Positions 18,636 to 36,581 of a stretch of DNA of 64,000 nt are shown in pieces. The DNA lies in the NCBI GenBank assembly GCA_964443875.1, contig CAYUET010000002.1, forward strand, positions 70,082 to 134,081. The letters are read 5' to 3'. The stretch comes from an uncultured bacterium. GTDB lineage: Bacteria; Auribacterota; JAFGBW01. Each line of letters starts with the position of its first letter. The first letter of the stretch is position 1. A program made the translations under genes and the position numbers. A model generated the notes under the pieces. That model ran no database searches and was not told the origin of the DNA. It saw only the letters and a list, made by a program, of their open reading frames with translations.

Positions 18636-18642
18636 GATGGAT

Positions 18643-19644
18643 TTACCATTGCCAGAGAGGCATGATTTGATTCTCACTGATGTTGAAAAGGGAGTAAAGG
18701 CCTGGAATTTTACACAGCATCAGGACAATAAAGAGAATGAGACAGAACAGTGTGAAAAAAACAAAATTACGTTCCCTGTAGAGTTTCTCCGGTGCCTGAA
18801 CCGGGCTGTCCGTTTTAAAGCCCAGATAGAGGTAGTAGGTGAGAAATCCTGAGAGGAAAGGAAGCATGAGAATGAGTTCCAGGTGGTAGCGCACCATGAA
18901 AATGCCGGCAAAAAGGCTTCCGGTGACAGCATAGAAGAAGACACTGAAAAGAAGCCGTTCAGGGGTGTAGTGCCGAAAGGATTTTCGGTAGGCTCCGGCT
19001 TTTCCTTCCTGTTTGATTTCCCGAAGTTCCGCAAAGCGCTTGAGGGCCATAAAAAAGGCCCCGTACATCCAGTAGGCGATGAAAAGGGATACCGGAGGAA
19101 AACGGTCCGGAATCAGAATAAACCAGCCCATCACGAGACGGATGGGGTTGTTTATGGATTCGGAAAGGACATCCAGGTAAGGGATTTCCTTGGTGCGGAA
19201 AGGGGAAATATTGTAGAACATTCCCATGATCCACAGGGAGACTGCGGCCCAGCCAAAGGGAATATTGATAGAGAAGGAGAGGCTTATGCCCACACAGGCA
19301 AGAAAGATCCATTCGGCATAACCCAGGGGAATATTGATCAGACCGGAGGGTACGGGTCTGAATTTTTTTTTGGGATGATAAAGGTCAAAGGGGGCATCCA
19401 GGATTTCATTAATCACATAGTTGCTTGAAGCCACAAGGCAGATGGCTGAAACGGAGAGCAGAAGTTTTAAGGGCGAAATGACTGAAAAATCCGGAATCAG
19501 AAAAAAAGCCAGAATAATGCCCAGCCCCATGAAAACGTTTTTAAACCAGTGATCCGGTCTTGCGATATCCACATAGGGCCCGAATTTTCCGAGTGTTTTA
19601 TAGCGGGGAATGGAGGATTTTTCACTTCCATCAATGGTTTTCAT
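18643..19644 (-). CDS. UbiA-family polyprenyl-phosphate 5-phosphoribosyltransferase (DPPR-synthase type)
   Basis: 333 aa with 8-9 TM helices. NEILDAPFDLYHPKKKFRPVPSG matches the NDxxDxxxD...HPxKRFRPIAAG signature of mycobacterial Rv3806c-type decaprenyl-phosphate phosphoribosyltransferases. A second Asp-rich region is present. Confidence 0.75.
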   Translation of the reverse strand: MKTIDGSEKSSIPRYKTLGKFGPYVDIARPDHWFKNVFMGLGIILAFFLIPDFSVISPLKLLLSVSAICLVASSNYVINEILDAPFDLYHPKKKFRPVPSGLINIPLGYAEWIFLACVGISLSFSINIPFGWAAVSLWIMGMFYNISPFRTKEIPYLDVLSESINNPIRLVMGWFILIPDRFPPVSLFIAYWMYGAFFMALKRFAELREIKQEGKAGAYRKSFRHYTPERLLFSVFFYAVTGSLFAGIFMVRYHLELILMLPFLSGFLTYYLYLGFKTDSPVQAPEKLYRERNFVFFTLFCLILFIVLMLCKIPGLYSLFNISENQIMPLWQW

Positions 19645-22800: not shown

Positions 22801-22950
22801 GAGAAGTCTTTAAGGGTGATTATCGGGCTTTATGATCAGCGAACGGGTAAGCGTTCCAAGCCCTCTTCTTCTCATCCTGTCGACATGAGGTCTGTTGAGC
22901 TGGGGGAGATTTTTATTGCCCCTGATGTTCACAGACCAGAAGATCAGTGA
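19810..22950 (+). CDS. GT-C family glycosyltransferase, ArnT/PMT-like, paralog of 15534..18635
   Basis: 1,046 aa. YFDEAITGLMGMHLLRGEFPVFYWGCPYLGPLE aligns residue by residue with the paralog. Homology continues through the C-terminal domain (FESKKSV...YSGFRNMSYLRE versus FESKKKI...FGGFRNIEFLK). Confidence 0.75.
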   Translation: MFLFKRSLFWTSAAILVFVFTRLFFISLPSYAVTYFDEAITGLMGMHLLRGEFPVFYWGCPYLGPLEALFAALFFLITGEASTFALRLSPLLAYLIYGGALLAQARLTMKKEVFYFCFLFLIFPPYYLLHFSLTAIGDYMNTVMLGSLMILLTSIMITDEKRLNLRNVFLLGLLSGFSFWTFIQTAPVILACHLILFLRMRFSYPGIPLLLSFLGFVLGSLPFWMWNWNNDFLTFTMKVTGADPGSFPGHARNYYEVLKLLLGNYSLQPQGYRTFTAGLAAFFLIAVPCLLFSGQGLFARLKKPDPLLLLIVAFTGNSLAYIVSSHGDLKLPRYLLPLYSSLPVLLPFALSFLLKGRYFFVFSTGLLLLMSLPENIRFTKSNLDPAYINRFTPRRAELNEFFDYLGQNNIRHLYGAYCFTQILTFESKKSVTAADYSGFRNMSYLREADNDPRTGLAAEDLLGAPDSDSLESTIKLLTRKYQKKKCGRFTVFHDFKINDASDAPLPSGSIQSISVCEQQERKNLLNDRIFETFWETQKPMTGKEWITLTFVKPVRVTRLLLIPGTDYLAFPRGLRMEGTDVRGHRIKLAEAKSICGSFKVFHGKPRLFGKGEIEIRLDKETELSSVTLFQTGEDRFFHWKIGEIIPFEQKQENSLLISSVPEIPEDRFLVTTPELYLKHYYKTFHDQQTIPLYPPMLTYLHWSRVWDYDTPKRYLNMDSDLLFILPPDHWEYFKNYLQSHEIAYSLKETHNLVTVQTQSCGIPKDRKYIPLLPRTKWAETFNQNPVFEAFFPEPVLLYGFKLAKPPCGFQWKDLMIEILDSGGEWKSVAFKTHEAYWTDEVILESCREGSEVHFEKPVPAQKVRFILHGLYKTPQDLEDFCKSEIIGDFKSGKDEYLVKKTEASGSVAIFEETLSLDDFSLNPSNPHPGGYLEVHARFSWLKKKRKNMASTFFLHALDSTGYKVFQLDRDLDFGRNPQDLKKPFERKYFIKIPESIKEKSLRVIIGLYDQRTGKRSKPSSSHPVDMRSVELGEIFIAPDVHRPEDQ

Positions 22951-24710: not shown

Positions 24711-24840
24711 TTAGACCATAAAAGCCTTAAATGTTAATATTATGTTGTTTTTTTGAAAAAAATATTGTAATGTATTTTTTGATGATGTTGATCAGAATTT
24801 AATGAATGGCAGGGATCTTAAGAAAGAGGAGCTGAAAAGG

Positions 24841-26229
24841 ATGAAAACAACAAAAAGATTATCTGTTAAAGGGAGTGCGCTGATTGTATCTATTATTTTT
24901 TCAACCCTTATCGGGATGGGGACTGTTGCGCTTCAGAATTTTCAATACCTGACACACAAGACGAACCATAAATCTTTTGAGGGTAATAAAGCCCGCTATA
25001 TGGCGGAAGCTGGTATTATGCTTGCCCTTGATGAGCTTAATAACCAGACTTCCTCCCCTTTTTCCGGAGCCGGGGATTTTTACTGGGCTTCTTCAGGCGG
25101 TAATATTTATACCCTCTCCCGTTCGGATATCGGGAGTGTGAATGTGACGGTTGATTATACAGACCCCAATTCCGTGGTGATTAAAAGTTATGGATTCTAT
25201 CAGAGTGTAAGAAAAGGTTTAGAAGTTAAGGCTATTAAGGCAGGCTCTTCAGCCATTAATCCCATTTTCCCGGGAGCCATTGCCGCCCAGTCCGACATTG
25301 TGACCATGAATTCTTTTACCGTGGATTCCTTTGCAAATGGGGTCTATGACGCTCTTCATCCGGGCTACAACGGGCATGTGTTTACCAAAGATGACAGTAT
25401 CAATTTAAAATCAGGAACCATTGTCAGAGGTCATGTTTACGCCCCTCCAAGTCCTGTTCCGGTTTTCAATACCGGAGAAAATTCCAACGGTAATGTGTAC
25501 TGGACCGCTGCAGATGAAACTGCAGCACATAATTGCGGCGGGAGTACAGGGGTTTTTACAGAGTTTAAACCGGTCGCTATTCCTCCTCATCTTTTAATGA
25601 CAGGCTCGCCTACTGCAGTTCTGTCAAGCGGGGGGAGTTATGGAAGCGGTCATTATACAGGGGCAACGGGTCTTGGAAACTTGACTTTTACCGGCGGTTT
25701 TTATAAAATAGATGGGGATATGGCTCTTGGCAACAGCAAGGTGCTGACCATTAAAGGAAACAGTGATATCTATATCACAGGAGACTTGTCTCTGGGGAAC
25801 GGAGCGATGATAATCAATTATACCCTGAAAGCGGATGGATCTGATCCTGACACCTTGCCTGACGTGGATAAGGTTTATACCCTGAGAATTTATGTGGACG
25901 GCGGACTCACCTTTTCTCAGGGCAATGAAGTGAATATGTACTGCAATTATGATGTCACCAAGCTTCAGCTTTACGGATGCGGGAACGGCTATTTTGCAAC
26001 CCCAGCTAAAAAAATCAATATTAAAAACGGAGGGTCATTTTTCGGATTTGTCTATGCCCCGTATTATGAGGTGGAATTTAATAATGCCAATGAGGTTTTC
26101 GGCGCCTTTGCCTCGTATCAGATTATTCCGAAAAACGGATCAAAGATTCATTTTGATGAACGTTTATGGGGCTTTGTGGACGGGGTGGCCCCGGATAAAT
26201 ACGGATTAAGCGGATGGGAGGAAATATGA
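24841..26229 (+). CDS. PilX-like minor pilin (type IV pilus or pseudopilus assembly protein, PilX_N domain)
   Basis: The N-terminus KGSALIVSIIFSTLIGMGTVALQN...KARYMAEAGIMLALDEL fits the PilX N-terminal domain. The ATG at 24841 has an AGAGGAG RBS. An alternative upstream ATG lies at 24802. Confidence 0.65.
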   Translation: MKTTKRLSVKGSALIVSIIFSTLIGMGTVALQNFQYLTHKTNHKSFEGNKARYMAEAGIMLALDELNNQTSSPFSGAGDFYWASSGGNIYTLSRSDIGSVNVTVDYTDPNSVVIKSYGFYQSVRKGLEVKAIKAGSSAINPIFPGAIAAQSDIVTMNSFTVDSFANGVYDALHPGYNGHVFTKDDSINLKSGTIVRGHVYAPPSPVPVFNTGENSNGNVYWTAADETAAHNCGGSTGVFTEFKPVAIPPHLLMTGSPTAVLSSGGSYGSGHYTGATGLGNLTFTGGFYKIDGDMALGNSKVLTIKGNSDIYITGDLSLGNGAMIINYTLKADGSDPDTLPDVDKVYTLRIYVDGGLTFSQGNEVNMYCNYDVTKLQLYGCGNGYFATPAKKINIKNGGSFFGFVYAPYYEVEFNNANEVFGAFASYQIIPKNGSKIHFDERLWGFVDGVAPDKYGLSGWEEI

Positions 26230-26421
26230 AGAAGACAAACCAGACGCATTATTTGTTTAAAAGCGGATTTCACCCGAATATGGACCGGCATTGCAAATAT
26301 TCGGGAGCCAGGGTCAGGCCTATGCCGCATAGGACTGGCATGCGTAAAAAATAATCGCTTTTAAAAAAATAATAAGAGTGATCTGTGCCGTTTTACCTTT
26401 TAAACCTGAAAGGTCGAAACC

Positions 26422-26880
26422 ATGGGGATATTATGTAATCATCACGATTCCAGGATCCGGATTAAGGGATTTTCCCTGATCGAACTCCTGATCGCCATTT
26501 TTATATTTTTTCTGATTTTTTCAGGAGTCATGAAAAGTCTTGCCTCTATTTTCACTGTTCAAAAGGATTCCCGTGAACTGGCGATCGCCTCTCAGATTCT
26601 AGGTGATATTGCCGAAAAAATCACCTATATGAGAAATACGGCCGGATGGGATGTGATTGATTCTTCCACCCTGGTTTTTAACTCAACGACGGTTGCTGAA
26701 TTGAATTCTCTCCCCGGGAGTTCGGTCAATGTTGCAGTTGTACCTTATAAGGATGCATCCGGCGCAGATACGAATACTTTGAAAAGGATTACGATTACGC
26801 TGAATTGGACTTCCAAAAATGGGAAAGCAAAATCAGAGGCCTTTGAAATGGTGTTGTCAAAACCGCCGTCAGGAATATGA
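26422..26880 (+). CDS. Prepilin-type N-terminal cleavage/methylation domain protein (PilV-like pseudopilin)
   Basis: KGFSLIELLIAIFIFFLIF is a class III signal (G|FxLIE) followed by a hydrophobic helix. The protein is 152 aa. Confidence 0.7.
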   Translation: MGILCNHHDSRIRIKGFSLIELLIAIFIFFLIFSGVMKSLASIFTVQKDSRELAIASQILGDIAEKITYMRNTAGWDVIDSSTLVFNSTTVAELNSLPGSSVNVAVVPYKDASGADTNTLKRITITLNWTSKNGKAKSEAFEMVLSKPPSGI

Positions 26881-26884
26881 GTTT

Positions 26885-27508
26885 ATGAAAAAAAGAGCTT
26901 TTTCAATAGTGGAGCTGCTTATTTCTCTGACTCTGCTTGCGGTGGTGAGTATAGGTTTTTTTTCTGCCTTCCGGTTTTACCAGGCAAGAGGGCTTGCCTC
27001 CACCCAGAAAGCGATAAATCTTAATGCCATGCGTTCCTCTCTGGATAAGCTCAAACAGGATCTCCTGATTTCCAAAGGGCTTTATAACAATGATTATTCA
27101 AAAGTTCACGCCGTGAATGACCCCTTTAATGTTTATCAGACAAAAGATAATCAGCTGATTGTCAAAATTCCTTCGGTTTATTCTACCAATGAGTTTATTG
27201 ATGTATCTGATCCGGAATATACCGATTATTATTTTTATTACTTATCCGGAGGCGAGCTCATCAGAAAAACATTCAGAAGCACAAAAACGGGTTCATCCCG
27301 GCCAACGGATGATTATATTCTTGCCAAAGGATTGAAATCCATTCGTTTCAGTGACGGATTACATACTTTAGGGACTCTTTCCAGCGAAAAGCTGTTGAGC
27401 ATCCGGCATATTCAGATTGTCATTACCGCAGAGGTGCAGAACACGCTGAACGGGACTCCCCAGACTGAAACATTGACCTTGAATGTTTCCTTTCGTAATT
27501 ATATGTAA
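26885..27508 (+). CDS. Prepilin-type N-terminal domain protein (PilW-like pseudopilin)
   Basis: MKKRAFSIVELLISLTLLAVVSIGFF has Ala rather than Gly at position -1. The ATG at 26885 was chosen over the longer ORF from 26819. Confidence 0.65.
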   Translation: MKKRAFSIVELLISLTLLAVVSIGFFSAFRFYQARGLASTQKAINLNAMRSSLDKLKQDLLISKGLYNNDYSKVHAVNDPFNVYQTKDNQLIVKIPSVYSTNEFIDVSDPEYTDYYFYYLSGGELIRKTFRSTKTGSSRPTDDYILAKGLKSIRFSDGLHTLGTLSSEKLLSIRHIQIVITAEVQNTLNGTPQTETLTLNVSFRNYM

Positions 27509-27684
27509 ATCGCCTTTTCTTTCTTTTTTTCCAGGATAAGTCTGCTTCCTTAACTCTTCGAAAACCTGATTGTTATGAAATGAAAATATTTTGCCTGTTG
27601 CCATTCCCATTGAACAGGGGATGTGGTAGCTTATTCTTTATATGCGGAAATTTATTTATAACGTAAAAACAGGTATCGGAATTC

Positions 27685-30600
27685 ATGGTGTTTTTTAAAA
27701 AACTGACAGTCCTCCTTTTTGCCTTTATTTTTCTTTTTGAGCAGGCTTTTTCAGTTTATGCAACCCCTTGTGTTTCAAATGATTCAGAGATGTCAAAACA
27801 GTGCCTTGCTCCAAATTCAGAGATGGGAGCCATCCATGTTAAGAAACTGTTTCTCAACACCCTGATAGAGGCCTGGCTTTATTATTCCCGGAATAAGGAC
27901 CCTGAAGGGGTAATGGACTGGAAAAAAATTCATTATCACCTTGTGAAAAACGGATTTAATATCAGGGAAATATCCGGAAGCAGTGAAAAGGACAGCTATG
28001 TCACCCTTTATTTTAAAACAATGAAGGGAACCACCCAGGAGGTCTCTTTTCATTTTGACAGAAAAGGAAAAAACCTGATCAAGCCTAAAATAACTTTTCC
28101 TCCGGACAAGGAGACCTATGCTTTTGGTTTCAATGAAGGGATTGAAAGCATGGATACCCGGATTCTTGATTTTCTTGAAACACCTGCTTTTGACGAGGAT
28201 CTCTGGGCTAATCAGCAGGAAAAGAAAAAAGAAACCCTTAGGGAAGTTAATAAAAACAGCACTCCTGAAAGTTCAACGCGCATTGCCGGAGCTGTCCTTG
28301 CCTATGCGGCGACTTTTTCAGCCCTTACTTTGCTTTTTTTATATGCGCCCTTTGGGCTTTATGCCCTGGGATCTGTACTTCTGATTGCTGTGATAACGGG
28401 GCTTATCACCATGGCTGAAACAGCCCTGATCAGCACGACAAGGGATGAAAAAGCGGTGGCGTATCTTCAGAAAGAGGCTAAGAAAGGGAACCGGTCCGCT
28501 AAGAAGGCGCTTGACCTTGTGAATAAAACCCATCAGAAACTTCCTACAATCACCCTGACTAAAAATCTGGTTGGTGTTCCGGGCGGAATCATGATTTCGG
28601 GTATTTCGAATTCTTTTATTTCACGCTATTTTACGGGCGGAATAGCGGCCCAGATTCTTGACAGGATTTTTTCAGTAGTCTTGACACTTGTTTTTACTGA
28701 ACAGATTCCCAAGGATATAGCTTCTGCGGATAAAAAGGTTTATATTGTCATGGCCATGGCCCCTGTTTTTCCTTTTTTTGAAAAGATTTTGTGGCCGGTG
28801 ATAGCCCTTTTGAACAGATTAAATCATTTTTCTCTTCAGTTTGTTTCAGCTCTGTTTTTTCTGGACCGTTCCTCGCAGAAAAAACAAAGGACTTATGCTA
28901 AAAAAATGGGGAGAATTTTTGAAAATGGCTGGCTTGAAGGAACGCTTTCTGACCTGGAATACCATTTTCTTGACGGAGTTCTTGCCCTTGATTCTACAAC
29001 AGTCGGAGAGCTTTTTGCCAAAAGAGACTGGAGCTATACCCTCTTTTCGTTATCCCCGGAGCTAAGTATTTCTAAAGCCGTAGAAAAACTGGATGGAACA
29101 TTTTTTTCCTATATTCCGCTGATTGATAAATATGGTTCCTGTCACCAGGTTGTATCCAGAGAGGATATTCTTCTTCATAATCAAAAGAGGGTGACGCTGC
29201 AGAAAAAACTGGATTTTTTCCGGGATAGGAAAGAAAAATTGATGCATCACCTTGAAGTTCAGGAAGCTTCATTGAAAGAACTCCCGGAGGATGGACAAAT
29301 TCAAAGGCTGGTCTCTATTTATAAAAAACATATTCAGATTGCAGAAAAGAACTCCATGGAACTTGGATATCAGATTTCATCCCTGGAGTATAAAAATCTC
29401 CTGACTCTGGATCCTCTTCCTCATGTGATGATCAGTAAAGATCAGCCGGCGGGTGATGTGCTGAAATTTTTTCTTTCCGAATATCCACCGAAAATGGCGC
29501 TTATGGTGGATGCCCGTAAAAGGCCTGTTGGGGTGGTGACCCTGGAAGATATCATGGAATTTCTTTTTCAGCAGGAGATTTTTGATGAGACGGACATTGC
29601 CAAGAATTCTGGAAGCAGGGAAAGCCTCTCCCGGAAACCCATGCAGCTTATTTCGAATCCTGTAATTCAGAAAAACAGACGTCTGGCGGCAAGACTTCTT
29701 GAATTTAAAAAAACAAAGCCGGAAACTTCTGCATTGGATCATCGCTATGAAATTTCCCATCTGAAAAAGGAACTTGAATTTCTTTCTTCTGTTCAGATTG
29801 GTTTCCTTTTTGACCTTTTATGGGCAGATGCGTTTGGCAACCGTAAAATACAGCCTTTTATCTATTCCTGCAATATGGAGGGTTATCATGTCCTTGCCGG
29901 ATGGTTTCAGCAAAAAAAAGAGTATGAAGATCTTTTCATTCTGCTGAGAAAGGCATTTAAAGAAATCAAGCGTATGAATTCAGGGGTTCCCGCCGCACAT
30001 AATTTTCATCAGATTTACAATGACTTCTACAAATTGATCCGCTATGCCCAGATTGGAAATCCCCAGAAGGATCCCCGGATTGATTTTCTCCTTAAGGAAC
30101 CAGTGCTTCAGAAAACGGCCGCTTTTTTAATGAACAGGAATGAAGATTATTTGAAAGATAATCTGATCCGTCTGAAAGAAATGTCCCAGATTGCCGAATC
30201 CACTCAAAGTTACCATCCCCGGAGTTTTTTTAGAAAAATACAGCCTTTCCTCACCTCCGGAATGATTGCTTTTCTGATCGGGGGAGTTGTGGCTTTGGGA
30301 TTCCTGATCAGTTCACAGATGGGCGGTTTTGTTCTTGTGACCCTGACGCTTACGTTTTTATCCGGATTGATCTCTGCAATGGAAGCGGCGGTCTTTTCCG
30401 TCAACAGGGAATCAGTTGAAAACTTGAGTTATTCAGGGGATCCTCTGGCTTTCCTTCTCAAGGATATCCTTGAAAACCGGCAGAAATATATTCCGACCAC
30501 TGTATTTTTTGATACTCTGATTAAAATTCCCGGAGGGATCCTTTTGAAATCCGCATCCCTTCCCATACTCGGGGAGCTGGGAAGCTGGTTTTTTTCCACC

Positions 30601-31494
30601 CTGTGGTTTACTGTTTTCGTCAAAGTCATTCCGAAATTTTTAGGTGTAAGTTTTTCTCTTTCCGTTTCAAAAGTAGCGGCTCCTATTCTTAAATTTTTAA
30701 GAGCAGTTTTCTACCCTGTTATTTTTTTAATGCAGAAACTTACTTTGTTTTTTAAATTGTATCTCAAGGCGCTTACCTTTGGGAAAATTGATTTTATTGC
30801 CCCTGCCCATCAGAAGGAGAGCGTTGAGATTTATAACCAGCAAAGGCAGCAGATCAACCGCGTTTTTGAGTCGGAAAAACAGGAGGCTCTTGCCAGCGAA
30901 CCTGACTCACCTGTTTATAAAGAAAAGAAGACTACGCTGGGTCTTCTTGAAAAGGGTCTTGCCTTTTTCGGTGAGGTTCCGGGAGTTGTTACTGTTGCAG
31001 ACCTATTGAACATCAAAGCTCAGCAGAAATCCCTTCCGAAAATTTTTGATCTGCCTTTTGATATTACGATCGAAAAGGCCAACTCTGCTATTCAGAATTG
31101 TCCTTTTTCCAGAATTCTTCTCTATGACCGTGTTATCAACGGTAAAATGAATTACATCGGATGTGTATTCAAGGAAGATATCCTTCAGGCCTATACGGAA
31201 AAGAACAGAAGGGGAGCTCCCCTTTCGAGTCTTTTATATACCCTGGTTCCTAAAATTTCTCTTTCCTCCCCGGCAAAGGATTTGCTGAAAAAGTTTCTGG
31301 CTGTGGGAACAGCCCATCTTTCCATTGTGGAGGATGGGGAGGGAAATCCTGTTGCCGTTCTTTCTCTGGAGGATGTTATGAAATATATGCTGACCCCGAA
31401 AAATGCGGAAACACGGGTAAGAGAAAATGTACCAATCCCCGCTGAAATTTCAGAAATGATTTCCCCTTATCACCCGGAAAAACACGCGGCTTAA
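27685..31494 (+). CDS. Large membrane protein with a tandem duplication of the DUF21 (CNNM/CorC-type) transmembrane domain plus CBS domains
   Basis: 1,269 aa. It has a signal peptide, a roughly 200-aa soluble N-domain, a first DUF21 (ITGLITMAETALISTTRDE...TEQIPKDIA) with a CBS pair (VGVVTLEDIMEFLFQQEIFDE), a second DUF21 (LISAMEAAVFSVNRESVENL...VKVIPKFLG) and a terminal CBS (VAVLSLEDVMKYML). Confidence 0.7.
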   Translation: MVFFKKLTVLLFAFIFLFEQAFSVYATPCVSNDSEMSKQCLAPNSEMGAIHVKKLFLNTLIEAWLYYSRNKDPEGVMDWKKIHYHLVKNGFNIREISGSSEKDSYVTLYFKTMKGTTQEVSFHFDRKGKNLIKPKITFPPDKETYAFGFNEGIESMDTRILDFLETPAFDEDLWANQQEKKKETLREVNKNSTPESSTRIAGAVLAYAATFSALTLLFLYAPFGLYALGSVLLIAVITGLITMAETALISTTRDEKAVAYLQKEAKKGNRSAKKALDLVNKTHQKLPTITLTKNLVGVPGGIMISGISNSFISRYFTGGIAAQILDRIFSVVLTLVFTEQIPKDIASADKKVYIVMAMAPVFPFFEKILWPVIALLNRLNHFSLQFVSALFFLDRSSQKKQRTYAKKMGRIFENGWLEGTLSDLEYHFLDGVLALDSTTVGELFAKRDWSYTLFSLSPELSISKAVEKLDGTFFSYIPLIDKYGSCHQVVSREDILLHNQKRVTLQKKLDFFRDRKEKLMHHLEVQEASLKELPEDGQIQRLVSIYKKHIQIAEKNSMELGYQISSLEYKNLLTLDPLPHVMISKDQPAGDVLKFFLSEYPPKMALMVDARKRPVGVVTLEDIMEFLFQQEIFDETDIAKNSGSRESLSRKPMQLISNPVIQKNRRLAARLLEFKKTKPETSALDHRYEISHLKKELEFLSSVQIGFLFDLLWADAFGNRKIQPFIYSCNMEGYHVLAGWFQQKKEYEDLFILLRKAFKEIKRMNSGVPAAHNFHQIYNDFYKLIRYAQIGNPQKDPRIDFLLKEPVLQKTAAFLMNRNEDYLKDNLIRLKEMSQIAESTQSYHPRSFFRKIQPFLTSGMIAFLIGGVVALGFLISSQMGGFVLVTLTLTFLSGLISAMEAAVFSVNRESVENLSYSGDPLAFLLKDILENRQKYIPTTVFFDTLIKIPGGILLKSASLPILGELGSWFFSTLWFTVFVKVIPKFLGVSFSLSVSKVAAPILKFLRAVFYPVIFLMQKLTLFFKLYLKALTFGKIDFIAPAHQKESVEIYNQQRQQINRVFESEKQEALASEPDSPVYKEKKTTLGLLEKGLAFFGEVPGVVTVADLLNIKAQQKSLPKIFDLPFDITIEKANSAIQNCPFSRILLYDRVINGKMNYIGCVFKEDILQAYTEKNRRGAPLSSLLYTLVPKISLSSPAKDLLKKFLAVGTAHLSIVEDGEGNPVAVLSLEDVMKYMLTPKNAETRVRENVPIPAEISEMISPYHPEKHAA

Positions 31495-31638: not shown

Positions 31639-32655
31639 ATGAAGGTTTTTAAGTGCATTTTCTTTTTATTGCTTTGTTCTCTAATTTTGCCTTCAGCCCT
31701 TTTTGCTTCAGTAATTAAATTTGCCTCTCTGGCCCCTGAGGGGAGCACCTGGGTCAAGGTGCTTACTCAATGGAATCAGGAACTTACGGAAAAAAGCAAG
31801 GGAGCACTTAAGTTTCGTGTGTATTCCGGAGGGGTGGCCGGGGACGAAAAGGATGTGATCCGGAAAATCAGGCTGGGACAGCTCCATGCCGGAGGCTTTA
31901 CCGGAGTAGGTCTTGGTGAAATTGCGCCTGAGGTACGCATTCTGGATGCTCCCTTTCTATTCAGAAATACCGAAGAAGTTGATTATATTCTGGGTGCCTT
32001 TGAAAAAGAATTCTTCAAAGCCTTCAGACAGAAAGGCTATGTGCTTTTAGGCTGGGCGGAAGTGGGGTTTGTTTATTTTTTTACCGCAGAGAAAGCCTCT
32101 GATTTTGAGAATCTAAAAGGGATGAAGATGTGGGCCTGGGAAGGAGATCCCATTGCAGAAGCCCTTTTTAAAAGCTTGAATATAAGTCCGGTTCCCCTTT
32201 CTATTGCCGATGTTACAACCTCCCTTCAGACCGGACTCATCAACGGGGTATATTCCTCTCCCATGGGGGCCCTGGCTCTTCAGTGGACAAACCGTACAAA
32301 ATACATGCTGAACCTCAAATTGTGCAATGCTTCAGGGGCTGTCCTGGTTTCTGCCAGGCTTTTTGATTCCTTGCCCGGCGATCAAAAAGATCTTCTTCTG
32401 GACACGGGGAAGAAACATTTAAGGCATCTCACAGAACTTTCGCGTGCTGAAAATATTTCGGCAATTGATTTTTTGAAGCAGAATCATGTTGAAGTTACGG
32501 AGTCCCTGATTCCCGAGGGATCGGAAACGATAGAGAAGACCGGAACCAGGGCAAGGGAAATGCTGATTGGAAAGCTGTATGACAAAAAATTTCTGGAAAA
32601 GGTTGAAACCTCCCTTGCGGAATATCGTGCCGCACATCCATTAAAAGCGGATTAG
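31639..32655 (+). CDS. dctP: TRAP transporter substrate-binding protein (DctP family)
   Basis: 338 aa with a signal peptide and DctP-family motifs. It is the first gene of a three-gene operon. Confidence 0.85.
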   Translation: MKVFKCIFFLLLCSLILPSALFASVIKFASLAPEGSTWVKVLTQWNQELTEKSKGALKFRVYSGGVAGDEKDVIRKIRLGQLHAGGFTGVGLGEIAPEVRILDAPFLFRNTEEVDYILGAFEKEFFKAFRQKGYVLLGWAEVGFVYFFTAEKASDFENLKGMKMWAWEGDPIAEALFKSLNISPVPLSIADVTTSLQTGLINGVYSSPMGALALQWTNRTKYMLNLKLCNASGAVLVSARLFDSLPGDQKDLLLDTGKKHLRHLTELSRAENISAIDFLKQNHVEVTESLIPEGSETIEKTGTRAREMLIGKLYDKKFLEKVETSLAEYRAAHPLKAD

Positions 32656-32659
32656 ACTG

Positions 32660-33172
32660 ATGCCCTGGATTCAGAAAATTGAAGCTTTTCTTTTAAAAGT
32701 TGAACAGTTTTTTCTGGTTCTGCTTTTAACTCTCATGATATTTTTTGCCTTTACCCAGGTTATTTTGCGGCAGTTTTTTTCAACAGGGATTCTCTGGGCT
32801 GATTTGTTTGTAAGACATCTTGTGCTCTGGACAGGATTTTTTGGCGCGGCATGCGCCACAGTGAGGAAAAGACATTTTATTATCGATCTCTTAAATAAAA
32901 ATCTTTCCCCGGGTTTTAGGGAATTTGCGGATTTTTTGACGGATATCTTTGAGATCCTTGTCCTGGCCTTGCTTTTAAAGGGCGCCTTTGTTTTTTTTAT
33001 GGATGATTATCAATACGGATCAGAGCTTTTTTCCTTTTATTCTTTGCACGTTAAATCCTGGAGCATGACTCTGATTTTTCCGGCAGGTTTTATTCTGCTT
33101 CTGACTCATTCCCTGCTTTCCTTCATCAAAAATGCCTGTCTTCTGTTCAGAGGAAAAGGGGGGCGAAAATGA
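32660..33172 (+). CDS. dctQ: TRAP transporter small permease (DctQ family)
   Basis: 170 aa with 4 TM helices. It is positioned between dctP and dctM. Confidence 0.8.
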   Translation: MPWIQKIEAFLLKVEQFFLVLLLTLMIFFAFTQVILRQFFSTGILWADLFVRHLVLWTGFFGAACATVRKRHFIIDLLNKNLSPGFREFADFLTDIFEILVLALLLKGAFVFFMDDYQYGSELFSFYSLHVKSWSMTLIFPAGFILLLTHSLLSFIKNACLLFRGKGGRK

Positions 33173-34428
33173 TACTCCTCCTTCTTTCTGTCCTCCTGAT
33201 CCTGACCTTTTTGGGTGCTCCGATTTTTTTGATTCTCGGCGCTCTGGCCCTCGTGGCCTTTCACTCCGCAGGAATTGATTCTTCAGCCATTTTTGCGGAA
33301 ATGTACCGCCTTGCTTCTCTCCCTGCCCTGGTGGCGATACCACTTTTTACCTTTGCCGGATATGTTCTCGCGGAAAGCAGGGCTCCAAAACGTTTTTTAG
33401 GGATTGCGGAGTCTCTTTTCGGCTGGATTCCCGGAGGGCTTTCCGTGGTCAGTCTTTTTACCTGTGCCTTTTTTACGGCTTTTACCGGTGCTTCCGGAGT
33501 CACAATCATTGCCTTGGGAGGCTTGCTTTATCCTATGCTTACCAATAAAGGCTATTCGGAAAAATATACCTTGGGCCTTCTAACCACAACAGGAAGCCTG
33601 GGGCTTCTTTTCCCTCCCAGTCTTCCCATAATTCTTTACGGTCTCATTGCCAAAATCAGCATTGATCAGCTTTTTCTTGCAGGGCTCATTCCCGGATTAC
33701 TTCTGATCCTTGTTCTTATGGTTTACGGGTTTGTCTGTGAAAAGCATCCTCCCCTGGTTTCTTTTTCATGGATAAATGTCCGGACCTCAATTCGGGAGGC
33801 GATGTTTGAGATTCCTCTTCCCTTTATCATTCTCGGGGGAATCTACGGGGGGATTTTTACAGCCACGGAGGCCTCCGCCATCATGGCTTTTTATGTGTTT
33901 GTTGTTGAGTTTTTCATCTATCGTGATCTTGCCTTAAAAAAAGATCTGGTGAAAGTGATTGAACAGAGCATGATGCTGGTAGGCGCTATTCTCATCATGA
34001 TGGGAATGGCCATGGGGCTTACCAATTATCTGATTGATGCTCAGGTTCCCATGCATATGTTTGAATGGATTCATATGTATATTTCAAATAAATATTTTTT
34101 TCTTATTCTTCTGAATGTTTTTCTTCTGGTCATGAATATGATTCAGATGTTTTCCGCCATCATCATTGTCGTCCCTCTCATTTTGCCGGTTGCTTTGCAG
34201 TATGGCGTGGATCCCCTTCATCTGGGGATTATTTTTCTTCTGAATCTGGAAATCGGATACATGACGGCCCCCGTGGGCATGAATCTGTTTCTGTCGGCGC
34301 TCCGTTTTGAAAAACCGATTACTCAGGTTTACAGGGCGTCTTTACCCTTCTGGTTCATTATGATGGCTGTTCTTGTTCTGGTGACTTATGTTCCGGAGCT
34401 TAGTCTGGCATTAATTTTCAGGAATTGA
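33169..34428 (+). CDS. dctM: TRAP transporter large permease (DctM family)
   Basis: 419 aa and polytopic. It overlaps dctQ by 4 nt. Confidence 0.85.
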   Translation: MILLLLSVLLILTFLGAPIFLILGALALVAFHSAGIDSSAIFAEMYRLASLPALVAIPLFTFAGYVLAESRAPKRFLGIAESLFGWIPGGLSVVSLFTCAFFTAFTGASGVTIIALGGLLYPMLTNKGYSEKYTLGLLTTTGSLGLLFPPSLPIILYGLIAKISIDQLFLAGLIPGLLLILVLMVYGFVCEKHPPLVSFSWINVRTSIREAMFEIPLPFIILGGIYGGIFTATEASAIMAFYVFVVEFFIYRDLALKKDLVKVIEQSMMLVGAILIMMGMAMGLTNYLIDAQVPMHMFEWIHMYISNKYFFLILLNVFLLVMNMIQMFSAIIIVVPLILPVALQYGVDPLHLGIIFLLNLEIGYMTAPVGMNLFLSALRFEKPITQVYRASLPFWFIMMAVLVLVTYVPELSLALIFRN

Positions 34429-34517: not shown

Positions 34518-36581
34518 TCACTGGAAATTGGGGGAAGTTTTTAAACCAGGGGTGCCGAAATGAAGGAGTTTATGTGCAGCCTGTATTTGTTCAGCAGTGC
34601 CCAGCATGAATACCCTGTCCCCGGTTAAAAAGGTATGATCAGGATTGGGATTGGTCATGTGCTGCCCTTTCCGTTCAATGGCAATCAGCGTTGCACCCGT
34701 CTTCCTTCGTAAGTCGACTTCCCGAAGGGTGCGCCCCTCAAAAGCAGCCGTATACTGGGATTCAAGTTCAAAGGAGTCAACGTAAATGCCGGGGGATAAT
34801 TCCGTGTGTAATAAGGAAGTGTCAATGGAGGTTTTTTCCCTTTTAGGGGAGGGCTCCTTGACGGAGATCATGGATTCCAAAGCTGTCTGCGCGCGGCTGT
34901 ATACAAGCGACATGCGTTTGCGTGCCCACAGGGTGATAAACAAGGCCACTGCAGTCAACAATAAAAACACCGTCCGGGAAGGAAGAAGGGTTGAACTCAA
35001 GATGGAGGTTAAAAGAAACAGCAGAAAAATCGACGCCAATACGAGAGCGTTGGTAATGAATAAGCGGGTTGGACGCACCCATACGCCCTTCAGGGAGAGG
35101 GGCAGAGCTGTCTCCGCAAGCATCATGGCCAGGGCTTCAGTTTTTCTTATAATCGCGAGATAAAGCGGCAAACTGAAAATCACACAAGCAAGACATACAA
35201 AGGCTGCCAGCTGCCCCGACAGTGAAATCCCGTATCTTGCCAATGCCCCGTATCCGAAAGTCCCAAGTGCAAAAATAGCTGAAATTAAAACCAGATTCAT
35301 GACAATGGTGATAATGGAACGTTTGACAACAAGGCGTATAGCGCTGTTTGATTTTCCCCTGCTTAATTGTTCAATCCACTGCGCGTAGAAAGCAAACCTT
35401 GCGGCCCAGCGGCGTCCGGATTCATACTGAGGGAGCAATTTTGAGCCCCTTTCCCCGGCTCTGATCATATAGGGGCTGAGAATGGTAGTTAAGACAGCTA
35501 CTCCTACTCCTATCTGGTAAACAGACTCGCCCCCGATTCCCTGGGAGAAAGCCAGTGCGGAAATAATGAAGGCAAACTCCCCTACCTGTGCCATTCCTGC
35601 TCCAATCCGGATGGCGGAATCCAGAGAATGGCCTGTAAACAATGTGCCAAAAAAATTCATTGTAAATTTACCGGCGATCACAACAAAGGTGATCAGAAGG
35701 AGAAAAGGGAGATAATTCCAAAGAGCCGCCGGATTCAACTGAAGCCCGATGGTCACAAAAAATACAGCGCTGAAGATATGCCTTAAAGGATCTATAAGGG
35801 CCACGATTTGTTTTTTTGCATTGGATTCCGAGGCGATTGCTCCGATCAGAACAGCTCCAAGGGCAAGGCTCAGTTCGAGTTTTACGGCCAAAAAGGCCAC
35901 ACCAAAACACAGGCCGACAAGCATCACGATAAGCAACTCATCATTTTTAAAACGGCCAATGTAATTGAGCAGACGCGGGATGGTCAATAAACCGGCGACA
36001 ATAACCATCGCCAGAAAAAGAGTCAAATGCCAAAGCCGTTCAACAACCATCGCTGTCTGAAAAGTCCCGGTATAGGCTATGCCTGTGAGTATGGCAATCA
36101 TGATAACCGCCAGCATATCCTCCACCAGGGTAATCCCGATCATTGCCCCGGCGTATTTTTCCCTGGTAAGTCCCATTTCATTCAGAATTTTCGCGAGGAT
36201 TGTACTGGAGGAATCACAGATAATGGCCCCTAAAAAAAGGCTCTCCACAGGTGCCCAGCCCATGAACCGTCCAAGAATGAATCCTATCCATAACATAATG
36301 GCGACATCCAGCAAGGCCACGATAAAAGCAGTGCCCCCCACTGTTCTCAGTCTGCGAAGGTTGAAATCAACTCCCAGTGAAAACATCAGAAACACCAAAC
36401 CGATATCTCCAAGCGTCCTTATGATCTGTTCATCATGAATAAAATTGAAAGGAGGGGTATTAGGGCCGATGATTAACCCTGCCAGGACATATCCGATAAC
36501 TTTCGGCTGATCCAGTTTGTGAAAGATAAAGGCGGTAAAACCCGCTATTGTTAATATGAGAGCCAAATCTTGCAGGAGCAT
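34518..36581 (-). CDS. Monovalent cation:proton antiporter (CPA2/Kef-type) with a C-terminal RCK_C (TrkA-C) domain
   Basis: 687 aa. The Na_H exchanger core shows GYVLAGLIIGPNTPPF. The C-terminus GRTLREVDLRRKTGATLIAIERKG...GDRVFMLG is a TrkA-C domain. The RBS is AGAGGAAG. Confidence 0.8.
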   Translation of the reverse strand: MLLQDLALILTIAGFTAFIFHKLDQPKVIGYVLAGLIIGPNTPPFNFIHDEQIIRTLGDIGLVFLMFSLGVDFNLRRLRTVGGTAFIVALLDVAIMLWIGFILGRFMGWAPVESLFLGAIICDSSSTILAKILNEMGLTREKYAGAMIGITLVEDMLAVIMIAILTGIAYTGTFQTAMVVERLWHLTLFLAMVIVAGLLTIPRLLNYIGRFKNDELLIVMLVGLCFGVAFLAVKLELSLALGAVLIGAIASESNAKKQIVALIDPLRHIFSAVFFVTIGLQLNPAALWNYLPFLLLITFVVIAGKFTMNFFGTLFTGHSLDSAIRIGAGMAQVGEFAFIISALAFSQGIGGESVYQIGVGVAVLTTILSPYMIRAGERGSKLLPQYESGRRWAARFAFYAQWIEQLSRGKSNSAIRLVVKRSIITIVMNLVLISAIFALGTFGYGALARYGISLSGQLAAFVCLACVIFSLPLYLAIIRKTEALAMMLAETALPLSLKGVWVRPTRLFITNALVLASIFLLFLLTSILSSTLLPSRTVFLLLTAVALFITLWARKRMSLVYSRAQTALESMISVKEPSPKREKTSIDTSLLHTELSPGIYVDSFELESQYTAAFEGRTLREVDLRRKTGATLIAIERKGQHMTNPNPDHTFLTGDRVFMLGTAEQIQAAHKLLHFGTPGLKTSPNFQ

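What the first reader, a model, noticed from the sequence alone, without database searches (positions are those of the whole stretch)
27685..31494. Tandem duplication of a whole DUF21-CBS (CorC/CNNM-type) transporter module within one 1,269-aa polypeptide
CorC/HlyC/CNNM family proteins normally have one DUF21 TM domain plus a CBS pair in about 420-450 aa, and they dimerise. Here one ORF carries two complete DUF21 domains, each followed by CBS sequence. It also has an N-terminal signal peptide and a roughly 200-aa extracytoplasmic domain.

This looks like a covalently fused pseudo-heterodimer, a useful natural test of how these Mg2+/divalent-cation transporters assemble. The two halves are diverged, so it is not a recent assembly artefact.
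Basis: seen in the sequence. Interest (0 to 1): 0.5.

Follow-up and report, generated by a model that had tools for sequence, protein, structure and literature searches.

The report
Single-chain double CorB/CNNM-type membrane protein
One conserved 1,269-residue bacterial gene encodes two complete CorB/CNNM-type membrane modules joined by an extra membrane helix, and because lysines replace the usual magnesium-binding residues in both modules it is a rare, built-in asymmetric "dimer" that probably does not handle magnesium in the textbook way.

Summary
ORF 27685..31494 (+) is uninterrupted and encodes 1,269 aa. It has two PF01595 (DUF21/CNNM) domains (each E about 2e-22), each followed by CBS sequence. 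The halves align at 23% identity (E 8e-17).

It is not an artefact. Two other assemblies carry the same uninterrupted gene (73% and 67% identity) in the same gene neighbourhood. Every domain is under purifying selection.

It is very rare. Among 1.84 billion representative proteins, only its own cluster has this architecture.

An extra hydrophobic helix (aa 849-876) precedes the second module, as the topology requires if both modules face the same way.

Pairing of the two halves within one chain is inferred, not shown. The canonical Mg2+/Na+ ligands are replaced in both halves:
- Half 1 has K293 where the family has Asn.
- Half 2 has D943, K947 and K980, the last replacing the near-invariant Glu.

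The ATP-binding Arg is lost in the half-1 CBS pair and kept in half 2. There is no CorC_HlyC domain.

Best reading: an asymmetric single-chain DUF21-CBS dimer of a divergent subfamily, substrate unknown. It is a new variant of a known kind, of moderate to high interest.

The parts
27685..31494 (+). Whole ORF, 1,269 aa plus stop: a tandem DUF21-CBS protein
   Evidence: ORF list. Pfam gives two PF01595 stretches and three PF00571 stretches. Full-length orthologues P0002 and P0003 exist.
27685..27762 (+). aa 1-26, a signal-peptide-like segment (MVFFKK, hydrophobic run, VYA|TP)
   Evidence: Hydropathy peak of 1.9. The small-residue -3/-1 pattern just before the conserved (T/Q)-P-C is kept in all three orthologues. 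Cleavage is inferred, not tested.
27763..28278 (+). aa 27-198, an N-terminal domain, probably extracytoplasmic, with the conserved pair C29/C40. Fold unassigned.
28279..28347 (+). aa 199-221, a hydrophobic helix ('TM0') directly before TM1 of module 1. Its topology is unresolved.
   Evidence: Hydropathy 1.9. AlphaFold models aa 199-253 as one continuous helix at pLDDT 56-82. It is the least conserved hydrophobic segment, at 41-68% identity.
28348..28860 (+). aa 222-392, DUF21/CNNM transmembrane domain 1. Site residues are T238, T242, K293 (codon 28561-28563), T338 and E339 (codon 28699-28701). G297 sits at the Na+-sensitivity position.
   Evidence: PF01595 E 2.2e-22. MtCorB 7M1T by sequence, E 9e-8, and by fold, E 2e-10. 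pLDDT 85-95. Residue mapping.
28879..29604 (+). aa 399-640, the helical bundle plus CBS pair 1. A helical hairpin of about 77 aa is inserted between CBS1 and CBS2 (aa 492-568, nt 29158-29388). The ATP-phosphate Arg is replaced by Y476 (codon 29110-29112; Leu in both orthologues).
   Evidence: PF00571, two stretches. AlphaFold helices at aa 492-530 and 536-568, pLDDT 85-94. Fold match to the TpCorC CBS domain 7cfh, target-normalised TM-score 0.83. Alignment to MtCorB R235.
29605..30228 (+). aa 641-848, a conserved all-helical linker domain with no family match. Its start resembles the C-terminal extension of the single-module relatives P0009 and P0010.
   Evidence: No Pfam or PDB match. For aa 691-855, identity is 73-78% and dN/dS 0.09-0.19. 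BLASTP of P0009 aa 395-575 against aa 582-750 gives E 3e-7.
30229..30312 (+). aa 849-876, the extra transmembrane helix TM0'. It takes the chain from the cytoplasm back to the outside so that module 2 has the same orientation as module 1.
   Evidence: Hydropathy 2.17, the highest peak of the second half. Positive residues (R846, R850, K851) lie before it and an uncharged SSQMGG turn after it. It is modelled as a helical hairpin with TM1', at low pLDDT.
30313..30774 (+). aa 877-1030, DUF21/CNNM transmembrane domain 2. Site residues are S893, S897, D943 (30511-30513), V979 and K980 (30622-30624). K947 (30523-30525) sits at the Na+-sensitivity position.
   Evidence: PF01595 E 1.6e-22. 7M1T by sequence, E 1e-6. 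This is the most conserved region of the protein: 83-90% identity, dN/dS 0.04-0.14. Residue mapping.
30775..31395 (+). aa 1031-1237, a degenerate helical region plus CBS pair 2. The ATP-site residues S1142, R1143 (31111-31113), S1227 and D1230 are retained.
   Evidence: PF00571 E 3e-7. PDB sequence hits to CorC/CorB CBS domains 7cfi, 7cfk and 7msu. Alignment.
31396..31491 (+). aa 1238-1269, a short C-terminal tail. There is no CorC_HlyC domain.
   Evidence: No PF03471 hit, although most homologues returned carry it.
31639..34428 (+). The dctP-dctQ-dctM TRAP transporter genes immediately downstream. This neighbourhood is conserved; a functional link is not shown.
   Evidence: Pfam DctP and NCBIfam dctM. 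The order is the same in L001 and L002. No terminator-like site was found in the 144-nt gap.

Best explanation
The gene encodes a single-chain, built-in asymmetric version of the normally homodimeric CorB/CNNM (DUF21 + CBS-pair) membrane protein.

Inferred layout:
- A signal peptide and an extracytoplasmic N-terminal domain of about 170 aa.
- Module 1: three-pass DUF21 domain, helical bundle, CBS pair.
- A conserved helical cytoplasmic linker domain.
- One extra membrane helix (TM0') that carries the chain back to the outside.
- Module 2: DUF21 domain and CBS pair, in the same orientation as module 1.

I infer that the two modules pair with each other through TM2/TM3 and through the CBS pairs, as two CorB chains do. 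One polypeptide would then be one complete functional unit.

The two halves have divided the labour:
- Half 1 keeps the near-invariant TM3 glutamate (E339), but has a lysine (K293) at the Asn/Ser ligand position and has lost the ATP-binding arginine in its CBS pair.
- Half 2 has that glutamate replaced by lysine (K980), paired with D943 at the Asn position. It has a second lysine (K947) at the Na+-sensitivity position. It keeps the ATP-binding Ser-Arg and Asp.

Positions 71 and 111 (MtCorB numbering) both touch the same Mg2+ ion in the solved structures. The K293/E339 and D943/K980 pairs are therefore expected to form internal salt bridges that occupy the cation site.

Most likely working model: half 2 is a structural and nucleotide-sensing partner with a plugged site. 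Half 1 carries the only site that can still be titrated. The substrate or coupling ion differs from canonical Na+/Mg2+ exchange.

Shown: the architecture, its conservation, its rarity and the residue replacements. Inferred: intramolecular pairing, the salt bridges, the topology of the N-terminal part, and any transport activity.
For: Architecture.

Independent uninterrupted orthologues in the same neighbourhood.

Purifying selection on every domain, strongest on DUF21-2.

Closest solved relative is MtCorB 7M1T/7M1U, by sequence and by fold.

CorB TMD facts, all from PMC8242095: it is a dimer of three-TM protomers that dimerise through TM2/TM3. Mg2+ is bound by S21, S25, S71, the G110 carbonyl and E111. 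E111, I112 and P114 are invariant from archaea to human. CNNM2 E357K at this Glu is a disease mutation. R235L abolishes ATP binding.

TpCorC ligands S43, S47, N90, G129 and E130, and N94 for Na+ sensitivity: PMC7875539.

Alignment with 149 homologues:
- Position 111 is Glu in 144; half 2 has K in all three orthologues.
- Position 71 is Asn in 117; half 1 has K and half 2 has D.
- Position 75 is Asn in 114; half 1 has G and half 2 has K.
- No homologue has K or R at any of these three positions.
- R235 is Arg in 130; half 1 has Y/L/L and half 2 has R.

TM0' hydropathy and flanking charges.

The Pro-Gly signature in TM2 is exclusive to both halves plus P0009 and P0010 among 156 sequences, so both halves come from one divergent subfamily.
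Against: - No direct evidence that the halves pair within one chain. The AlphaFold model was confident only for half 1 (half 2 pLDDT 24-60, pTM 0.44), because MAFFT placed all short homologues on half 1. Coordinates and PAE were not available.
- Salt bridges are inferred from homology, not measured.
- The hydrophobic helix aa 199-221 sits between a presumed periplasmic domain and TM1. That is topologically awkward if it is a full membrane pass.
- Ser-to-Thr changes at positions 21 and 25 of half 1 keep the hydroxyls, and E339 is kept. Some cation binding in half 1 cannot be excluded.
- Only three orthologues exist, so conservation statistics are thin.
Confidence: 0.55

Rival explanations
1. 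It is an ordinary CorB/CorC-type Na+/Mg2+ exporter that merely happens to be fused. Both halves bind and move Mg2+ as in MtCorB and TpCorC.
For: Both halves pass the PF01595 threshold. Both keep the TM1 hydroxyl residues, E28, P114, K115 and P142 (MtCorB numbering). MtCorB is the closest solved structure.
Against: The first-shell ligand positions are changed in both halves to residues seen in none of 149 homologues: K293; D943 and K980. E130A abolishes transport in TpCorC (PMC7875539). CNNM2 E357K is pathogenic (PMC8242095). The Asn linked to Na+ sensitivity is G297 in half 1 and K947 in half 2.
Confidence: 0.1
2. The two halves do not pair with each other. Each pairs with its counterpart in a second chain, or by domain swap, giving a dimer of tandem proteins with four DUF21 domains.
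For: CBS-pair and DUF21 domains are intrinsically self-associating (PMC8242095). The linker of about 210 aa and the helical hairpin inserted in CBS pair 1 are long enough to allow either arrangement. Nothing tested here distinguishes the two arrangements.
Against: The degeneracy is complementary: Glu is kept only in half 1 and the ATP Arg only in half 2. That is what one expects if the functional unit is a half 1/half 2 pair. A like-with-like pairing would give a unit with no Glu and another with no ATP site. TM0' places TM1' next to module 1's end in the membrane.
Confidence: 0.2
3. It is no longer a transporter. It is a membrane sensor or regulator that uses the extracytoplasmic domain and one nucleotide-binding CBS pair, for example to control the adjacent TRAP transporter or another partner.
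For: Both cation sites are internally neutralised. A lineage-specific extracytoplasmic domain and cytoplasmic helical domain have been added. Synteny with dctPQM is conserved in all three assemblies. Whether CNNMs transport or regulate has been debated (PMC8242095 abstract).
Against: The membrane domains are the most strongly conserved parts, including P114/K115 of the pi-helix and the belt-helix P142. That points to a conserved conformational machine. Synteny alone does not show a functional link. P0009, a single-module relative, is not next to a TRAP system.
Confidence: 0.14
4. It is an artefact or a decaying gene: two adjacent CorC-like genes joined by a sequencing or assembly error, or a half that is a relic.
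For: None found. This is the default worry for any long fused ORF.
Against: Three independent assemblies (NCBI genome contig, Logan SRR22388113, ENA ERZ15185608) carry the same uninterrupted frame at 67-73% protein identity. The junction region (linker domain and TM0') is conserved and under purifying selection. DUF21-2 has the lowest dN/dS of all, 0.04-0.14.
Confidence: 0.01

Closest known systems
Prokaryotic CorB/CorC Mg2+ transporters (MtCorB, PDB 7M1T/7M1U; TpCorC, 7CFF-7CFK)
   Same: Each half has the DUF21 three-TM domain with the belt helix (P142 kept). Each keeps TM1 E28 and the TM3 x-x-x-I-P-K turn, followed by a helical bundle and a CBS pair. These are the best sequence and fold matches.
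   Different: - There are two modules in one chain plus a linking TM helix.
- There is no CorC_HlyC domain.
- Mg2+ ligand positions N90/S71 and E130/E111 are K293/E339 in half 1 and D943/K980 in half 2.
- The Na+-linked N94/N75 is G297 in half 1 and K947 in half 2.
- The ATP Arg is missing in half 1.
- A signal peptide, an N-terminal domain and a helical linker domain of about 210 aa have been added.
Eukaryotic CNNM1-4
   Same: A signal peptide and an extracellular domain precede the DUF21 domain, and an extra cytosolic domain follows the CBS pair (described in PMC8242095). Half 2 carries the natural counterpart of the CNNM2 E357K disease substitution. Half 1 carries the counterpart of CNNM4 R407L.
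   Different: No sequence or detectable fold relationship of the N-terminal domain or linker domain to CNNM domains was found. No CNBH domain was detected. CNNMs are single-module chains.
Single-module relatives P0009 (638 aa) and P0010 (601 aa) from metagenome-assembled genomes
   Same: They share the otherwise unique Pro-Gly signature in TM2, the I-P-T motif and a signal-like N-terminus. They also share a helical extension after the CBS pair that resembles the start of the window's linker. They are the closest relatives of half 2, at 119 and 96 bits.
   Different: They have one module only. They keep N71, N72, N75 and E111, but lack the TM3 Pro (GEDLGK/GEDLSK). They have no 170-aa N-terminal domain. 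P0009 is not next to a TRAP system.
Eukaryotic FEX fluoride channels versus bacterial Fluc dimers (an analogy, not homology)
   Same: A protein that normally works as a dimer of identical or similar chains has become a single chain of two homologous domains, one of which has a vestigial site (PMC5417652). From my own knowledge, not tested here: FEX also joins its two domains with an added membrane helix that sets their relative orientation.
   Different: The fold is unrelated. Fluc/FEX domains are antiparallel, whereas parallel orientation is inferred here. In the window protein both sites are altered, not just one.

Membership tests
CNNM/CorB/CorC superfamily (DUF21 + CBS pair) | DUF21 transmembrane domain (PF01595) above the gathering score | tested here: met
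   144.6 bits against a cutoff of 28.4. Two separate stretches score 80.1 and 80.5 bits when tested as separate pieces.
CNNM/CorB/CorC superfamily (DUF21 + CBS pair) | CBS pair directly after the transmembrane domain | tested here: met
   PF00571 scores 59.7 bits overall. There are two stretches after module 1 and one above threshold after module 2. The second CBS motif of module 2 is supported by alignment to MtCorB and TpCorC CBS pairs.
CNNM/CorB/CorC superfamily (DUF21 + CBS pair) | Invariant TM3 pi-helix motif G-E-I-x-P-K (E111, P114, K115 of MtCorB) | tested here: not met
   Half 1 has T-E-Q-I-P-K, so E, P and K are kept. Half 2 has V-K-V-I-P-K, so Glu is replaced by K980 in all three orthologues. 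Glu is present in 144 of 149 homologues and none has K or R.
Canonical Mg2+-transporting CorB/CorC/CNNM2/4 | Complete first-shell Mg2+ site (Ser, Ser, Asn/Ser, Gly carbonyl, Glu) | tested here: not met
   Half 1 has T238, T242, K293, T338 and E339. Half 2 has S893, S897, D943, V979 and K980. Ligand identities are from PMC8242095 and PMC7875539.
Canonical Mg2+-transporting CorB/CorC/CNNM2/4 | Asn linked to Na+ sensitivity (TpCorC N94, MtCorB N75) | tested here: not met
   G297 in half 1 and K947 in half 2. Asn is present in 114 of 149 homologues.
Canonical Mg2+-transporting CorB/CorC/CNNM2/4 | Mg-ATP binding residues in the CBS pair (MtCorB S234, R235, T313, D316) | tested here: inconclusive
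   In half 1 the Arg is replaced (Y476; Leu in both orthologues, equivalent to the ATP-dead R235L), while T619 and D622 are kept. In half 2, S1142, R1143, S1227 and D1230 are all kept. Binding itself was not tested.
Canonical Mg2+-transporting CorB/CorC/CNNM2/4 | Dimer through TM2/TM3 and Mg2+ transport activity | not testable with these tools
   AlphaFold gave a confident model for half 1 only, without coordinates. There is no functional assay.
Bacterial CorC/HlyC-type (DUF21-CBS-CorC_HlyC), including the NCBIfam equivalogs GldE, PaeA and CorC | C-terminal CorC_HlyC domain (PF03471) and a score above the equivalog cutoff | tested here: not met
   There is no PF03471 hit. GldE scores 80 against 376, PaeA 40 against 500, CorC 12.7 against 379, and PRK11573 48 against 475.

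The most novel reading that the evidence does not exclude
This would be the first single-chain CNNM/CorB 'dimer', and one in which built-in lysines (K293, K947, K980) stand in for the bound cations in both protomers. The DUF21 fold would then have been re-purposed here for cation-independent or differently coupled transport, of something other than Mg2+ (a proton, an anion or an organic solute), or for signalling. Only one nucleotide-sensing CBS pair and one titratable site would remain. That makes it a natural asymmetric construct for dissecting how the two protomers of this family cooperate.
Probability: 0.3. Interest if true: 0.7.

Novelty: new variant of a known kind. Interest (0 to 1): 0.58.

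Why it matters
CNNM/CorB proteins are a very large family, close to 90,000 known sequences according to PMC8242095. They are linked to human hypomagnesaemia and Jalili syndrome. Their mechanism is still argued over, including whether they transport or regulate, the coupling ion, and how the two protomers and the ATP-bound CBS disc cooperate.

Laboratory work on such questions usually needs engineered concatemers with one protomer mutated. Here nature supplies one. It is a conserved fusion in which one half carries the equivalent of the CNNM2 E357K change and the other half the equivalent of the CNNM4 R407L / MtCorB R235L change. Both halves are under strong purifying selection.

If the halves pair as inferred, the protein shows that a DUF21 dimer can work with a single glutamate site and a single nucleotide site. 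The charge-swapped Lys/acid pairs also mark which positions set ion specificity in this fold.

It is the only such architecture detected among 1.84 billion representative proteins, and it comes from an unplaced bacterial lineage.

Tried and rejected
1. Assembly artefact or frameshift fusion was rejected. There are three independent uninterrupted copies and dN/dS is well below 1 across the junction.

2. A search for further orthologues or other tandem proteins found essentially nothing.
- The genome-contig scan with the three-sequence alignment found none.
- The metagenome-contig scan found only a distant CBS match.
- The word-indexed search found only the three orthologues.
- Exhaustive HMMER found one full-length cluster, and every other listed hit was 640 aa or shorter.

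3. A full-text search for two, tandem or duplicated DUF21 domains gave nothing relevant. One further paper search was badly framed and returned nothing.

4. A full-length AlphaFold run intended to test the pseudo-dimer did not resolve it. MAFFT aligned all 137 short homologues to half 1 (tested beforehand). Half 2 came out at pLDDT 24-60, and neither coordinates nor PAE are returned. The assembly question therefore stays open.

6. The linker domain gave no Pfam or PDB match.

7. Taxonomic placement through IF-2 failed. No Rfam hit in the window could help. The organism is left unplaced.

8. The promoter and terminator scan around the gene was uninformative.

Full report
**Observation.** The window holds an uninterrupted ORF at 27685..31494 on the + strand, encoding 1,269 aa. 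Pfam reports PF01595 (CNNM/DUF21) in two stretches and PF00571 (CBS) in three. I then scanned six consecutive pieces separately:
- aa 221-420 gives PF01595 at E 2.2e-22.
- aa 871-1070 gives PF01595 at E 1.6e-22.
- aa 421-700 gives CBS at E 1e-10, in two stretches.
- aa 1071-1269 gives CBS at E 3e-7.
- aa 1-220 and aa 701-870 match nothing.

BLASTP of the first 700 residues against the rest aligns 232-627 with 887-1235 at 23% identity, E 8e-17. CorC_HlyC (PF03471), which most homologues returned carry, is absent from both halves.

**Not an artefact, and rare.** The word-indexed search of 5.8 billion clusters returned only the protein itself and two orthologues, of 1,272 aa (73% identity) and 1,270 aa (67% identity). 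They lie on independent contigs from a Logan assembly (SRR22388113) and an ENA assembly (ERZ15185608), with the frame continuous.

In both contigs dctP-dctQ-dctM follow the gene, as in the window. The end of the upstream pseudopilin-like gene is recognisable too.

A codon-level comparison shows purifying selection everywhere. dS is mostly 0.5-3. dN/dS is 0.07-0.10 for DUF21-1, 0.04-0.14 for DUF21-2 and 0.09-0.19 for the linker domain. The second module is the most conserved part of the protein, at 83-90% identity. It is not a relic.

An exhaustive HMMER search with aa 70-1269 against 1.84 billion representatives found 685 hits at E of 0.001 or better:
- Only one was full length, the orthologue cluster itself.
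- The next best reached only E 1e-24.
- None of the 150 listed exceeded 640 aa.

Scans of GTDB genomes and JGI metagenomes found no further copy. A tandem protein built from remote DUF21 clades could still have escaped this search. A full-text literature search for two or tandem DUF21 domains found nothing relevant.

**Anatomy.**
- aa 1-26: signal-peptide-like, with a conserved small-residue -3/-1 site before (T/Q)-P-C.
- aa 27-198: a conserved domain with two invariant cysteines.
- aa 199-221: a hydrophobic helix.
- aa 222-392: DUF21-1.
- aa 399-640: helical bundle and CBS pair 1, with a helical hairpin of about 77 residues inserted between the two CBS motifs.
- aa 641-848: a conserved all-helical linker domain.
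- aa 849-876: a strongly hydrophobic helix (TM0').
- aa 877-1030: DUF21-2.
- aa 1031-1237: CBS pair 2.
- aa 1238-1269: a short tail.

The solved CorB structure has three membrane passes per protomer, with the N-terminus outside and the CBS pair in the cytoplasm. It dimerises through TM2 and TM3 (PMC8242095). After a cytoplasmic CBS pair, exactly one additional pass is needed to start a second DUF21 domain in the same orientation. TM0' is that pass:
- Positive residues precede it (R846, R850, K851).
- An uncharged six-residue turn follows it.
- The next loop, TM1'-TM2', carries four positive charges.

In module 1 the TM1-TM2 loop has ten Lys/Arg, which fixes the canonical orientation.

The helix at aa 199-221 is unexplained. 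AlphaFold models aa 199-253 as one continuous helix at moderate confidence. A full extra pass there would be incompatible with a periplasmic N-terminal domain.

**Relationship to solved structures.** MtCorB (7M1T/7M1U) is the best PDB match for both halves by sequence. It is also the best fold match for the AlphaFold model (Foldseek E 2e-10). The TpCorC CBS domain matches at a target-normalised TM-score of 0.83.

The model is confident only for half 1 (pLDDT 85-95). MAFFT put all 137 single-module homologues on half 1, as a trial had predicted, so half 2 stayed at pLDDT 24-60. The tool returns no coordinates. Whether the two halves pack against each other could not be tested and remains an inference.

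**The ion site.** In MtCorB the Mg2+ is held by S21, S25, S71, the G110 carbonyl and E111. E111, I112 and P114 are invariant from archaea to humans, and CNNM2 E357K at this Glu causes disease (PMC8242095). In TpCorC the ligands are S43, S47, N90, G129 and E130, and N94 is linked to Na+ sensitivity (PMC7875539).

I aligned both halves of the three orthologues with 149 homologues and the MtCorB sequence:

| MtCorB position | Residue in 149 homologues | Half 1 | Half 2 |
|---|---|---|---|
| 111 | Glu in 144, never Lys/Arg | E339 | K980 |
| 71 | Asn in 117 | K293 | D943 |
| 75 | Asn in 114 | G297 | K947 |
| 21 and 25 | Ser in 125 and 122 | T238, T242 | S893, S897 |
| 114, 115, 142 | Pro, Lys, Pro in 146-148 | kept | kept |

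All of these residues except T338 (Ser in the two orthologues) are identical in the three orthologues. The register at position 71 is anchored by the I-P-T and P-G-G motifs shared with the closest relatives. A pairwise HMMER alignment differs by one residue there, so K293 versus N294 carries a small uncertainty. K980 does not.

Positions 71 and 111 touch the same ion in the crystal structures. Each half therefore carries a Lys/acid pair, with the charges swapped between halves, at the place where the cation normally sits. I infer internal salt bridges. Neither half looks like a canonical Mg2+ site.

**The nucleotide site.** MtCorB R235L, equivalent to CNNM4 R407L in Jalili syndrome, cannot bind ATP (PMC8242095). 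At this position half 1 has Y476, and Leu in both orthologues. Half 2 keeps S1142-R1143, S1227 and D1230. The degeneracy is thus complementary:
- Half 1 keeps the glutamate and has lost the ATP arginine.
- Half 2 has lost the glutamate and keeps the ATP arginine.

This pattern is what one expects if the working unit is a half 1/half 2 pair.

**Origin.** Two single-module proteins, P0009 (638 aa) and P0010 (601 aa), are the closest relatives of half 2, at 119 and 96 bits. They have a signal-like N-terminus. They also have a helical extension after the CBS pair that resembles the start of the window's linker.

A Pro-Gly pair in TM2 occurs only in both halves of the three orthologues and in P0009 and P0010, out of 156 sequences. 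Both halves therefore derive from one divergent subfamily. Half 1 has diverged further and is about equally distant, at about 70 bits, from half 2 and from ordinary members.

**Function.** The architecture is solid and the activity is not known. I commit to the following, at about 55% confidence. The protein is a single-chain asymmetric DUF21-CBS dimer. Half 2 is a structural and nucleotide-sensing partner with a plugged site. Half 1 holds the only titratable site. The substrate or coupling differs from Na+/Mg2+ exchange.

The rivals are a plain fused Mg2+ exporter (about 10%), like-with-like pairing between chains (about 20%), a non-transporting sensor or regulator, possibly tied to the conserved TRAP neighbour (about 14%), and an artefact (about 1%).

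No NCBIfam equivalog (GldE, PaeA, CorC) comes near its cutoff, so it should be filed only at superfamily level.

**Comparison and novelty.** The closest functional analogy is FEX versus Fluc, where a dimeric fluoride channel became a two-domain single chain with one vestigial pore (PMC5417652). Within the CNNM/CorB family I found no described or detectable single-chain double module. This is a new variant of a known kind.

The organism is unplaced. Its IF-2 is at most 48% identical to the best of 599 confirmed GTDB loci, which span many phyla.

**Open questions.**
- Whether the halves pair intramolecularly.
- The topology of aa 199-221.
- Any link to the TRAP genes.

Noticed in passing
window 24802-27508 (+): Directly upstream lies a run of pseudopilin-like genes. 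One is a 475-aa protein with DUF7305. Two smaller proteins carry the prepilin N-terminal methylation motif (PF07963), and their ORFs overlap at 26819-26880. The last of them is also upstream of the tandem gene in L002, and probably in L001.
   Followed up: partly
window 34518-36581 (-): A 687-aa Na+/H+-exchanger-family protein with a TrkA_C domain lies just after the TRAP genes, on the opposite strand. It is another ion-transport gene in the same neighbourhood, with no evidence of a link.
   Followed up: no
window 15534-18677 (-) and 19810-22950 (+): Two divergently oriented ORFs of almost identical length (1,047 and 1,046 aa) have essentially no Pfam match. The only hit is a sub-threshold F5/8 type C hit in the second. 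Whether they are paralogues was not checked.
   Followed up: no
window 52744-60909 (+): A very long ORF of 2,721 aa, not examined.
   Followed up: no
window 43613-46351 (-) and 46528-49008 (+): Two large ORFs (912 and 826 aa) have no NCBIfam match at E 1e-5. The 826-aa protein has only two near-identical cluster mates, in Logan assemblies.
   Followed up: no
window 8539-10890 (-), IF-2: IF-2 is at most 45-48% identical to the best 80 of 599 confirmed loci from GTDB species representatives. Those loci are spread over Firmicutes, Spirochaetes, Cyanobacteria, Deltaproteobacteria and others. The source genome itself is not among the representatives. The lineage looks deep-branching or poorly sampled.
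   Followed up: partly
window 29158-29388 (aa 492-568): A helical hairpin of about 77 residues is inserted between CBS1 and CBS2 of the first CBS pair. It is modelled at high confidence (pLDDT 85-94) but is the least conserved structured segment (46-58% identity). Its role is unknown.
   Followed up: partly
L084 5828-7912: The single-module relative P0009 sits next to a toxin-immunity-like pair (a PF09000 Cytotoxic weak hit and PF15572 Imm45), not next to a TRAP transporter.
   Followed up: no
window 27368-27610 (-) and L001 1-168 (-): An 80-aa antisense ORF overlapping the end of the upstream pseudopilin gene has a similar counterpart that was called as a gene in L001. It is most likely a shadow ORF of the conserved + strand gene.
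   Followed up: partly
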